64,000 nt of DNA from positions 31,558,001-31,622,000 of the forward strand of contig OX597829.1 of assembly GCA_951406725.2 (NCBI GenBank), given 5' to 3'. A model generated the notes under the pieces. The model was not told where the DNA came from. It worked only from the letters and a program-made list of their open reading frames with translations, and did no database searches. The position numbers were made by a program, and so were the translations under genes. This DNA is from Octopus vulgaris. Lineage: Eukaryota. This document shows, one piece after another, positions 18,155 to 55,562 of this stretch (the stretch's first letter is position 1; every line of letters starts with the position of its first letter).

Positions 18155-18197
<43 letters not shown>

Positions 18198-18361
18198 ACA
18201 GGGCACAGAAACTGTGTCAATAGCCAGCTGGATGAGGTATCCTCCTGGGTCTACAAGCTACAGTAGCATCCACCCTTAAGGGTTAACCACATTTAAGTGG
18301 CAAATATACTTCTCGATGTCGTTCAGCTACTGTTTATACCTCACTCAGGGATTTATTATTG

Positions 18362-18427
<66 letters not shown>

Positions 18428-33352: not shown

Positions 33353-33402
<50 letters not shown>

Positions 33403-33520
33403 ACAAGATAAGGGCAGAAGAAAAATTCTAATGCCAGATACGCCGAAACAAAAAATTGTTGATAACCATTAAATTTATGCGTCTCGAAACAAACCGATAG
33501 AAATCTCTAAAAAATTCGTT

Positions 33521-33584
33521 ATTACCGTATTGGTCCAATTTCGGGGTTAATTCACAAGAAATTTTCCCCTCTTCAGCGGCAAAT
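33521..33584 (-). ncRNA. Type-I hammerhead ribozyme (inverted copy)
   Basis: Reverse complement of the motif at 34188-34250. Confidence 0.8.
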
Positions 33585-34187
33585 ACGCGAGATATAAATG
33601 AAATACTTACTCATACTCACGGAAAAAGCAAGCACTAAGTCCCGAGCAGACTTAAGTACCCCAAATATATCCAAAATAGAAAAATCTTCGGCGCACCTCG
33701 AGACACGTGTGATTCTAACTAGAGACTTTCACAGAGTGATAGAATCCGGAAGTGAAACACTAATCTATTTATAATTAATATACGGTAATAACGAATTTTT
33801 TAGAGATTTCTATCGGTTTGTTTCGAGATGCATAAATTTAATGGTTAACGACAATTTTTTGTTTCGGCGTATCTGGCATTAGAATTTTTCTTCTGCCTTT
33901 ATCTTGTAAATTATGTATTTTACCTTTAAAGGCATCTTTTGATATGCTGGCCATTGATAAAAATTTTTTCACGAAAAAAATTTTATCCTATATTAATTAT
34001 AAATAGATTAGTGTTTCACTTCCGGATTCTGTCACTCTGTGAAAGTCTCTAGTTAGAATCACACGTGTCTCGAGGTGCGCCGAAGATTTTTCTATTTTGG
34101 ATATATTTGGGGTACTTAAGTCTGCTCAGGACTTGGTGCTTGCTTTTTCCATGAGTATGAGTAAGTATTTCATTTATATCTCGCGTA

Positions 34188-34250
34188 TTTGCCGCTGAAG
34201 AGGGGAAATTTTCTTGTGAATTAACCCCGAAATTGGACCAATACGGTAAT
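34188..34250 (+). ncRNA. Type-I hammerhead ribozyme
   Basis: TTGCCG-CTGAAGA-GGGG..CCCC-GAAA-TTGG a CCAA-TA^-CGGTAA: canonical core, 6-bp stem I, 4-bp GC stem II, near-palindromic stem III with 1-nt loop. Confidence 0.85.
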
Positions 34251-34484
34251 AACGAATTTTTTTAGAGATTTCTATCGGTTTGTTTCGAGACGCATAAATT
34301 TAATGGTTATCGACAATTTTTTGTTTCGGCGTATCTGGCATTAGAATTTTTCTTCTGCCCTTATCTTGTAAATTATGTATAAATTTTACCTTTAAAGGCA
34401 TTTTTTGATATGCTGGCCATTGATAAAAAATTTTTCCCGAAAAAATTTTATCCTATATTAATTATATATATATATAAGTGTAAA

Positions 34485-41902: not shown

Positions 41903-42474
41903 TGTAAAGTATTATAGCCATCTCGATATGGATAACCACAAAGGGTGGTGTTACTGTAGCTTTTTAGCCCCAGGAGATCATCGTCTCCAGCTGGCTTTAG
42001 GCACACTATCTGTGCCCTTATGGTATTTGCAAAGGGAGACCATTACTGTAGCTTTTTAGTCCCAGGAGATCATCGTCTCCAGCTGGCTTTAGGCACACTA
42101 ACTGTGCTCTTATGGTATTTGCAAAGGGAGACCATTACTGTAGCTTTTTAGCCCCAGGAAATCATCGTCTCCAGCTGGCTTTAGGCACACTATCTGTGCC
42201 CTTATGGTATTTGCAAAGGGAGACCATTACTGTAGCTTTTTAGCCCCAGGAGATCATCGTCTCCAGCTGGCTTTAGGCACACTATCTGTGCCCTTATGGT
42301 ATTTGCAAAGGGAGGCCTTACGAGTAAGGGATGGCCTCCCTTTGCAAATACCATAAGGGCACAGATAGTGTGCCTAAAGCCAGCTGGAGACGATGATCTC
42401 CTGGGGCTAAAAAGCCACAGTAACACACCCCTCCTTTGTGGTTAGCCATATCGAGATGGCTATAATACTTAACA
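41903..42474. mobile_element. Fold-back element with 92-bp unit x4 in the left arm
   Basis: Termini TGTAAAGTATTATAGCCATCTCGATATGG / CCATATCGAGATGGCTATAATACTTAACA; units start at 41951, 42043, 42135 and 42227; one inverted unit after the spacer at ~42318-42332. Confidence 0.85.
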
Positions 42475-45435: not shown

Positions 45436-46561
45436 TATGTTACGAAAAGAAAATATAAAATACACGTGGAAATGTAAGGGTAAAATATGAAAAATCAACG
45501 AAAATGCATATTGCAGATAGAAAAAGGCTATTTATGAAAGGTATTGACAAATATATACAAAGATTATGGAAAAATAGCCGAAATACTAAACAAGACTTAA
45601 AAATACTCCCGTACATCTCTACACATAACCCCAGAAACAACGAAGCCTTCAACATCATCACCCAAAACCTCCCCATCCTCACAGCAGACAAAACAATGAA
45701 CGAAATTTTAAGCCCATATAAAATTATAAAAAGCAAAAAGCAACCGAAGTCACTGAAAAGAATACTAACCAGTGCTAGACTTTACCCACTAACTGCTGAG
45801 CCAAAAGTGACAAAATGTGGACGTTCTAACTGTGGAACATGCCCCCACCTTCTGGAGGGTTCAGAATTCCAATTCAAACAAGGAGAAATATTTAAGATCA
45901 AATCAAATTTCACCTGCGCCTCAGTAAATGTAATCTATGTCATGACATGCATAGGATGTGGTAAACTCTATATTGGACAAACAGGAATTTTGCTCCGTCA
46001 AAGAATCACCATTCACAAAGAGCAAATCCGTCACCCACAATACAGACAGTTAAAGGTGGGTGAACACATAGAAAGATGTGCCAGGAATCTTATTCCCAAT
46101 TTCCAAATATTTCCCTTTTACCAATGCTCACAGAACACCACAATGCAACAAAGGTTGAATAAAGAGTCATTTTTCATCAACAAATTTCTCCCCCAACAAA
46201 ATATGAACACACAACTCAATACAGAACACCACTAACTCTACAATTTAAACCACTAAACCCTATACACTTTCTACATCACTCACATCTCTAATTCCAGAAC
46301 TACTTACCTCCCTTAGAAATAATCTCTTTTCTCAGGAACTATTAGACCTGACACCGTTTATTAACCGGTGTTGTTCAAACGATGAATAGCCCACGCGCAA
46401 ACCAATTGGTTCGTTTTGGTCTCTTACTCATAATAATGACCTTTATGACTCGTATTACTACCTCAGTCAATCTAAATGTATATATTTGTCACTACCTGTC
46501 ATAAATAGCCTTTTTCTATCTGCAATATGCATTTTCGTTGATTTTTTTATATTTTACCCCT
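45430..46561 (+). mobile_element. 5'-truncated Penelope-like element with inverted pLTR piece
   Basis: GIY-YIG ORF; 45478-45567 is the reverse complement of 46469-46561; (TA)n on both sides; degenerate HHR-like motif at 46376-46418 (palindromic ACCAATTGGT). Confidence 0.9.
45504..46235 (+). CDS. Penelope-like GIY-YIG endonuclease C-terminal fragment (N-terminal ~25 aa derive from the inverted pLTR)
   Basis: KCGRSNCGTCPHL zinc-knuckle linker, FTC.S.NVIYVMTC.GCGKLYIGQTG..LRQRI.IH, H, E..FI. Confidence 0.85.
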   Translation: MHIADRKRLFMKGIDKYIQRLWKNSRNTKQDLKILPYISTHNPRNNEAFNIITQNLPILTADKTMNEILSPYKIIKSKKQPKSLKRILTSARLYPLTAEPKVTKCGRSNCGTCPHLLEGSEFQFKQGEIFKIKSNFTCASVNVIYVMTCIGCGKLYIGQTGILLRQRITIHKEQIRHPQYRQLKVGEHIERCARNLIPNFQIFPFYQCSQNTTMQQRLNKESFFINKFLPQQNMNTQLNTEHH

Positions 46562-48982: not shown

Positions 48983-49070
<88 letters not shown>

Positions 49071-49073
<3 letters not shown>

Positions 49074-49353
49074 TGTATGCTGTCCCGTAAAGGGAATTAC
49101 ACACCGCTATTTAGCCCTAGGAAGCATCGACGCTTTCTGTCGGCTTTGACACGTTTTCTGTGTCCTTATATTTGCGAAGGGGAGGCAAGCACCCCCACCA
49201 GCTAGGGCTAGTACCTAGAGACATGCATGTTTCTGAGTCTTTGCTCGTCATCAGTCTAGGGTAACCAAGGAAGCGTCGATGCTTCCTAGGGCTAAATAGC
49301 GGTGGTGTAACTCCCATTACGGGACTGTCACGTTATGTTGACAGTATACAACC
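49071..49353. mobile_element. Small element with ~70-bp inverted repeats enclosing an HHR
   Basis: 49071-49138 pairs with 49268-49353 (17-nt insertion in the right arm); adjacent to (TA)n(GA)n. Confidence 0.8.
49214..49260 (-). ncRNA. Type-I hammerhead ribozyme (canonical core, GUC site)
   Basis: Minus strand: CCTAGA-CTGATGA-c GAG caaaga CTC a-GAAA-CATGCAT-GTC^-TCTAGG; stem III is the palindrome ACATGCATGT. Confidence 0.85.
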
Positions 49354-49525
49354 ACTCTATCGCTCCACCACCGCTCATGTCTCTCTGAGACATTTAGAAA
49401 TTTAATATTTCTAATTATATATATTTATATATATATATATATATATGTATGAATACACACACACTCGCACATACACACACACACACACACACACATACAC
49501 ACACACACACATATATATATATGTG

Positions 49526-49560
<35 letters not shown>

Positions 49561-49756
49561 TTTATTTAAAGCAGCAGAAAATTCAACAAAACCTGTTACT
49601 CTGAGTTTCACGTCCGATGAACGGCAACGTGAAACTCAGAGTAACAGGTTTTGTTGAATTCTCTGCTGCTTTAAATAAAACATATTACTCTACCACTGGT
49701 ACACTGGTATTTGAGTACTCTTTTTCCACCTTATTTCACATTTATGTGTTTACTCC

Positions 49757-55367: not shown

Positions 55368-55373
<6 letters not shown>

Positions 55374-55562
55374 TTTATAGAAGGAGTTCTACAGGACTAG
55401 AACTGTTTCATTCAAATGAAATCATCAGGAAGCCTGATGATTTCATTTGAATGAAACAGTTCTAGTCCTGTAGAAGCTCCTTCTATAAAATAAATTAATT
55501 TACTCTGCTATGTATTGAGTACCTTATTTACTGTGATTAACCCCGACTCAACCTGGGACCTA
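55368..55562 (+). mobile_element. Fold-back Penelope-like pLTR remnant with two back-to-back HHRs
   Basis: Arms 55368-55429/55433-55495; CTGATGA-tTTC attt GAAt-GAAA-CAG ttctagtc CTG-TA-GAAGC; between (TA)n tracts. Confidence 0.8.

What the first reader, a model, noticed from the sequence alone, without database searches (positions are those of the whole stretch)
49071..49353. Intact GUC hammerhead held between 70-bp inverted repeats (rod-like ~280-nt element)
Seen: a fully canonical HHR on the minus strand (49214-49260; 6-bp stem I, 10-nt palindromic stem III) in the spacer between long inverted repeats. The right arm has a 17-nt insertion that is itself a small hairpin, and a second GAAAACGTGTC-like half motif lies near 49148-49160. 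Unlike the other fold-backs, the ribozyme is single and unduplicated. Inference: either a Penelope inversion product or a distinct MITE-like or viroid-like ribozyme element.
Basis: partly seen in the sequence, partly recalled or inferred. Interest (0 to 1): 0.7.

Follow-up and report, generated by a model that had tools for sequence, protein, structure and literature searches.

The report
One-off inverted retrozyme insertion
This is one two-armed copy of a 353-base repeat that carries a predicted self-cutting RNA motif at hundreds of places in this animal genome; its fold-back join is found only here and was likely left by a Penelope-type copying enzyme, so it is an ordinary copy of a known kind of jumping repeat, not a separate viroid-like element.

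Summary
The hammerhead (minus strand, 49214-49260) and the inverted arms are real, but the element is not distinct. It is one insertion of a 353-nt tandem, non-coding hammerhead repeat (non-LTR retrozyme; 616 core matches, control 0). The junction and the 17-nt arm difference each occur once in the genome; the latter is a deletion in the left arm (93 of 93 other copies keep it). Outer ends are fixed at two unit positions, one per arm (26 of 27), with 11-15-nt target duplications: the published Penelope inverted-copy-plus-tail footprint. The ribozyme is a family-typical variant (C.A opposed at the base of helix II), predicted to need a dimer. The 'half motif' is a family hairpin. Cleavage, circles and the mobilising enzyme are not shown. 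In passing, a LINE inserts just upstream of this family's hammerhead. The scan noted both patterns before in other repeat families of this genome.

The parts
49071..49417 (.). Whole two-armed (head-to-head) insertion of the 353-nt hammerhead repeat; m1 = first base after the cleavage site in the real copy L011 used as ruler
49071..49263 (-). Arm 1, unit sense on the minus strand: m311 through the hammerhead and cleavage site to about m167 (the family's inner 3' end, mode m174)
49214..49260 (-). Type I hammerhead variant: 6-bp helix I, CUGAUGA, extra C and extra A around a 3-bp helix II, GAAA, 10-nt palindrome in helix III, predicted cut between 49220 and 49219
   Evidence: activity not tested
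49264..49267 (.). Private inversion junction joining m82 (inverted arm) to m311; unit positions m232-m310 are absent from this copy
   Evidence: 1 match genome-wide with up to 1 mismatch, this copy
49268..49417 (+). Arm 2, inverted 5'-truncated copy, unit sense on the plus strand, m82 to m231 (the family's outer 3' end, mode m229)
49354..49417 (+).
49325..49344 (+). Small hairpin that is the family's normal state; 17 nt of it are deleted from arm 1 near 49080
49148..49158 (-). GAAAACGTGTC: loop and 3' strand of a unit hairpin, not half a ribozyme
49024..49071 (.). (AG)24 tract next to the arm-1 end, followed outward by (TA)n; such a tract follows 8 of 54 ends of this class, (TA)n follows 20 of 54

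Best explanation
The stretch is one head-to-head, two-armed insertion of a 353-nt non-coding hammerhead repeat (a non-LTR retrozyme) with a join found only here, likely written by a Penelope-type reverse transcriptase-endonuclease and likely dead. Shown: the unit, its tandem copies, copy number, two fixed outer ends, variable inner joins, target duplications in sister copies, and the private junction and deletion. Inferred: a staggered cut in TA-rich DNA gave two primers; one cDNA began near m170 and ran back through the uncut (circular or multimeric) hammerhead to m311, the other began near m230 and stopped at m82; the two were joined, then a 17-nt hairpin was lost from one arm and point changes built up. 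Predicted: the single hammerhead folds poorly alone and would cleave mainly as a dimer through its palindrome; this copy lacks the second ribozyme and m232-m310 (the 5' half of the long helix I and a possible promoter motif), so it would not release a unit RNA.
For: Tandem unit of 353 nt in a real dimer, 45% GC, longest ATG frame 26 codons. 616 core matches, control 0; 1,904 matches of a 3' 16-mer, control 1. Junction and deletion: 1 match each, this copy. Of 79 scored insertions 34 are two-armed, 126-713 nt; 26 pair one m220-236 end with one m160-178 end, 1 pairs two alike (P 2e-7 for 26 of 27). Non-microsatellite duplications of 11-15 nt in 14 of 34. Sister arms are closer than the median unrelated arm in 28 of 29. 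42 of 48 arms that reach the cleavage site pass it. Helix I pairs hold in 77-92 of 92 motifs with compensatory changes, and the helix III insert is palindromic in 72 of 92 in several versions. Predicted lone active fold about 1e-5; dimer -29.7 against 2 x -12.0 kcal/mol. Inverted 5'-truncated copy plus tail at one end is the described Penelope layout (PMC8557442; PMC3846280); two internal RT starts explain the tail (PMC11167929). GIY-YIG frames exist in this genome.
Against: No autonomous Penelope sharing the unit was found: 29 other loci of one Penelope-like ORF family gave only short weak matches. The tail is about 57 nt, against 30-40 nt in the papers. This copy's own target duplication cannot be read in microsatellites. 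Only 1 of 45 one-armed copies showed a clear duplication by my rule. For this copy the sister arm ranks only 11th among 53 arms (94.1% against a median of 91.9%). Self-cleavage and circular RNA are untested.
Confidence: 0.86

Rival explanations
1. The unit is the terminal repeat of an autonomous Penelope-like element, and this is an ordinary doubly truncated copy of that element.
For: Same end signature; the hammerhead has the extra nucleotide after A9 and palindromic helix III reported for Penelope motifs (PMC4209133); only a small part of about 1,900 copies was read.
Against: 12 of 114 arms exceed one unit and run into more unit sequence. The conserved continuation that I traced was a LINE inserted within the unit. 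No ORF in the unit; no shared sequence with the Penelope-like ORF family tested.
Confidence: 0.07
2. The fold-back arose after insertion, by DNA repair or replication fold-back of a one-armed copy, without an RNA step for the second arm.
For: Sister arms are alike; one sampled copy, L106, is a palindrome that includes its flanks; the genome is rich in microsatellites.
Against: DNA fold-back would give two identical outer ends and mirrored flanks; instead 26 of 27 pairs have two different fixed ends and 14 of 34 have direct target duplications. Here the arms end at about m167 and m231.
Confidence: 0.04
3. A distinct MITE-like or viroid-like element in which the rod and the ribozyme move together.
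For: Strong rod fold on both strands; intact core; outer ends recur among relatives.
Against: Junction single-copy; continuous spread of sizes; ribozyme on one strand only; arm differences are private and uncompensated; the repeat is not terminal, as a 64-nt tail lies outside it.
Confidence: 0.03

Closest known systems
Metazoan non-LTR retrozymes (PMC7229834: passages and section 15 seen; bioRxiv 10.64898/2026.07.22.740005: parts 1-3 of 5 seen)
   Same: Type I hammerhead in a non-coding tandem unit of 353 nt (mussel 350-390, axolotl 330 and 353); compact predicted circle (z -7.5); mismatch at the base of helix II as in axolotl HHR_Amex2; many solo and truncated copies.
   Different: C.A instead of U.U at helix II; a long palindromic helix III; mostly dispersed one- or two-armed copies. 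RNA circles and cleavage not shown here. This copy holds one ribozyme only.
Penelope-like element insertions (PMC8557442 and PMC3846280: passages seen; PMC11167929: parts 1-2 of 4; PMC4209133: parts 1-2 of 4)
   Same: Inverted 5'-truncated copy abutting the 5' end, tail on one end only, two fixed 3' ends, short target duplications, TA-rich targets, hammerhead with an extra base after A9.
   Different: No RT or GIY-YIG frame; tail about 57 nt; no autonomous partner identified.
MITEs and hammerhead viroids or viroid-like circles (recalled, not from a call)
   Same: Short, non-coding, inverted repeats, rod-like fold, hammerhead core.
   Different: No fixed length or repeated junction, repeat not terminal, ribozyme in one polarity only, integrated among hundreds of non-rod copies.

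Membership tests
Non-LTR retrozyme (family level) | Type I hammerhead in each unit | tested here: met
   616 core matches, control 0; covariation in helices I-III over 92 motifs
Non-LTR retrozyme (family level) | Head-to-tail units of about 170-400 nt, no ORF | tested here: met
   353-nt dimer, longer arrays, longest ATG frame 26 codons
Non-LTR retrozyme (family level) | Highly self-paired monomer | tested here: met
   circular fold -120.1 kcal/mol, z -7.5 against 40 shuffles; prediction only
Non-LTR retrozyme (family level) | Self-cleavage and abundant circular RNA | not testable with these tools
   needs bench work or raw stranded reads; only contigs were offered
Non-LTR retrozyme (this copy, active) | Two hammerheads in tandem to release a unit | tested here: not met
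   one core, m232-m310 absent
Penelope-type insertion | Inverted 5'-truncated copy adjoining the 5' end | tested here: met
   this copy and 34 of 79 sampled insertions
Penelope-type insertion | Tail at one end only (two fixed 3' ends) | tested here: met
   ends at m160-178 (54) and m220-236 (46) of 114 arms; mixed in 26 of 27; about 57 nt against 30-40 nt published
Penelope-type insertion | Target-site duplication | tested here: inconclusive
   11-15 nt in 14 of 34 two-armed relatives; unreadable here, microsatellite flanks
Autonomous Penelope-like element | RT plus GIY-YIG ORF tied to this repeat | tested here: not met
   none in the unit or in the one ORF family tested; other families not tested
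MITE | Many copies of uniform length and internal structure between terminal repeats | tested here: not met
Hammerhead viroid or viroid-like circle | Ribozymes in both polarities (feature recalled) | tested here: not met
   one core, minus strand; half motif is a hairpin
Canonical hammerhead | CUGANGA, GAAA and NUH core with helix I | tested here: met
Canonical hammerhead | G10.1-C11.1 pair directly next to the core | tested here: not met
   extra C and A flank it; C/A in 61, T/A in 24 of 92 family motifs; no Rfam hit

The most novel reading that the evidence does not exclude
Each two-armed copy is written in one event from one uncut RNA, probably a circle, by a Penelope enzyme dimer that primes both cut DNA strands at two different fixed points of the unit; and the family is itself the chosen target of a LINE and its ORF1-only derivative that land just upstream of the hammerhead, at the start of an snRNA-type promoter. 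This copy would be one footprint of that mechanism.
Probability: 0.35. Interest if true: 0.6.

Novelty: new member of a known kind. Interest (0 to 1): 0.28.

Why it matters
The copy itself matters little: it is a dead, private rearrangement. Its family gives genomic support for a proposed route, Penelope enzymes moving animal retrozymes, and a simple test of it: one start at each of two fixed sites per insertion, with read-through of the cleavage site. It also warns that ribozyme-in-a-rod patterns in such genomes arise routinely and should not be read as viroids or MITEs.

Tried and rejected
Rfam: no hammerhead model hit in the region at E up to 10, only a generic hairpin model below cut-off; the whole-window list (150 of 179 rows shown) was microsatellite and hairpin noise. 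Recurrence of the rod: rejected; two pairs of equal spacing proved to be different insertions (L120 and L127; L157 against this copy). Second ribozyme half: rejected. Pile-up of 5' ends at the cleavage site: not seen (6 of 48). Autonomous partner: the Penelope-like frame beside L004 is only the target of that insertion; its family shares nothing with the unit; two pieces of that frame had no Pfam hit. RNA: no RNA holder listed. Contigs of runs guessed to be RNA cover parts of the unit, one with a 349-nt 'goes back' joint that a tandem copy explains as well as a circle; no listed contig bridged this copy's junction, which proves nothing. An 18-mer scan of U2 upstream DNA against the unit gave nothing above 13 of 18. 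A 22-mer from the arm found 386 matches, and the 10 loci read were all this family. Paper searches for a tested C.A hammerhead variant and for cephalopod Penelope ribozymes listed nothing specific.

Full report
Observation. The minus strand holds a hammerhead at 49214-49260: a 6-bp helix I, CUGAUGA (49248-49254), GAAA, the palindrome at 49221-49230 and a GUC site. It is not fully canonical: an extra C follows A9 and an extra A precedes G12, around a 3-bp helix II, and no Rfam hammerhead model matches at E up to 10. The inverted arms are real (49071-49138 with 49268-49353) and both strands fold as rods (z -14.7 and -12.9), as any inverted duplication would.

What it is part of. A search of the window's own genome (2.8 Gb, animal; species not determined) gave 112 matches among 40 scored of 2,940 candidates. 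One locus, L011, is a tandem dimer with period 353 nt; I used that real unit as ruler, m1 being the base after the cut. The unit is 45% GC with no ATG frame above 26 codons and folds as a compact circle (z -7.5, 40 shuffles). A core pattern has 616 matches (control 0) and a 3' 16-mer has 1,904 (control 1). On this ruler the finding is two truncated arms that meet head to head: m311 through the ribozyme to about m167 on the minus strand, and m82-m231 on the plus strand (49268-49417).

The special features dissolve. The junction has one match in the genome with up to one mismatch, this copy. So has the short form of the left arm; 93 of 93 other arms keep those 17 nt, so it is a deletion on the left, not an insertion on the right. 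The four substitutions between the arms are each rare in the family and uncompensated. The 'half motif' sits in a unit hairpin and mostly reads GGAAATGTGTC.

Architecture of relatives. I read the insertions at the first 100 listed sites, all on one chromosome. After merging, 79 were scored; L149 gave no alignment and was dropped, two pairs are halves of copies split by a LINE, and L131 is probably two-armed but was scored as one arm. Of 79, 34 are two-armed, 126-713 nt long, with inner joins spread over the whole unit. Outer ends cluster at m160-178 (54 of 114 arms) and m220-236 (46 of 114). Among two-armed copies 26 pair one end of each class, 1 pairs two alike (L106, a palindrome with mirrored flanks), and 7 have another end. 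Fourteen of 34 have non-microsatellite target duplications of 11-15 nt, against 1 of 45 one-armed copies; 16 of 34 touch microsatellites. This copy lies between (TA)n tracts with an (AG)24 tract at one end, so its duplication cannot be read.

Mechanism. Shown: the above. Inferred: a Penelope-type enzyme cut TA-rich DNA and primed two cDNAs at the two fixed points. Sister arms are closer than the median other arm in 28 of 29 copies, best in 8, which points to one source per event but does not prove one molecule; this copy's sister arm is only moderately close. Of 48 arms that reach the cleavage site 42 pass it, with no excess of stops there: the template was circular or uncut. The ribozyme was under selection in the family: helix I pairs hold in 77-92 of 92 motifs, the middle pair of helix II is A-U in 57 and G-C in 30, and the helix III insert is palindromic in 72 in several versions; these counts include relatedness. 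C facing A is the family norm (61 of 92; T/A 24). Folding gives the lone active form about 1e-5 and favours a dimer through the palindrome; this is a prediction without tertiary contacts. With one ribozyme and no m232-m310, this copy would not release a unit.

Comparison. PMC7229834 (passages; section 15) describes 330-390-nt tandem type I retrozymes, dimer-dependent cleavage and a U.U mismatch at the base of helix II. The 2026 preprint (parts 1-3 of 5) ties them to Penelope repeats and found 8 of 9 tested dimers inactive in vitro. PMC8557442 and PMC3846280 (passages) give the inverted 5'-truncated copy, the one-ended tail and short duplications. PMC11167929 (parts 1-2 of 4) shows two internal RT starts, cutting of both strands in AT-rich DNA, and uncut RNA as main substrate. 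PMC4209133 (parts 1-2 of 4) reports the extra base after A9 and motif pairs on opposite strands. No supplements were read; they may list cephalopod families. No autonomous partner was found, though GIY-YIG frames exist in the genome and 3 kb from this copy.

Side result. Of 28 exact sites of a LINE 5' motif, 15 are directly preceded by this unit ending at m277-m322; of 23 whose 3' end I located, 12 have a hammerhead core within 90 nt, against 2.1% of random positions (29 regions read, 6 not assessable). Most inserts are about 1.65 kb with only a zinc-knuckle frame (below the Pfam cut-off); a relative of 5,446 nt in L178 has endonuclease and RT domains. Its clade was not tested. Following earlier notes, I found ATCAGT upstream of 11 of 12 U2 loci, about 59 nt before the start in the one I counted, and at m237-242 in 19 of 27 arms, which would put a start near m296; a 6-mer is weak evidence. 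Tx1 families that target other transposons are known (PMC4494074, passages); one search for a hammerhead target listed a single unrelated paper (listing only).

Verdict. Real, explained and ordinary as a single copy: a new member of a known kind. The scan's earlier notes report the same two-start footprint and LINE targeting for other repeat families of this genome; none matched this sequence. Interest 0.28.

Noticed in passing
L170-L175, L178, L179, L180-L227 (e.g. G000:C1:12589200-12591800): A LINE-like family, mostly 1.65 kb with only a zinc-knuckle frame, inserts just upstream of the hammerhead core of this and related repeats with short duplications; a 5.4-kb relative has endonuclease and RT domains.
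   Followed up: partly
unit m237-m242 (absent from the window copy); U2 loci L228-L239: ATCAGT occurs upstream of 11 of 12 U2 loci and in 19 of 27 unit copies, a possible snRNA-type promoter motif. L233 has a LINE-like 3' end in place of the U2 upstream region.
   Followed up: partly
window 49555-49685 and 55368-55495: Short fold-backs of other families with hammerhead-like cores (one with CCGAUGA).
   Followed up: no
window 33388-34384: 415-nt inverted pair, 96% alike, with a CUGAAGA-type hammerhead-like motif on each arm (34195 plus, 33576 minus).
   Followed up: no
window 41903-42474: Tandem 93-nt subrepeats plus inversion, distantly similar to the unit's m50-m125 region.
   Followed up: no
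window 18195-18414: Distant relative of the unit (59% over 225 nt).
   Followed up: no
window 45459-46232: Open frame with a GIY-YIG domain (E 4.6e-6), a Penelope-like fragment.
   Followed up: partly
L004 (G000:C6:57021140-57024460): A two-armed copy inserted inside a decayed Penelope-like ORF whose family has at least 151 matches.
   Followed up: yes
window 49268-49310: Far more public contigs fit this 40-nt part than the ribozyme part, many with different continuations, hinting at a motif shared with other repeats (contig depth is no copy number).
   Followed up: partly
L060: A different insert of about 660 nt at the same unit position (m292-m307 duplicated).
   Followed up: no
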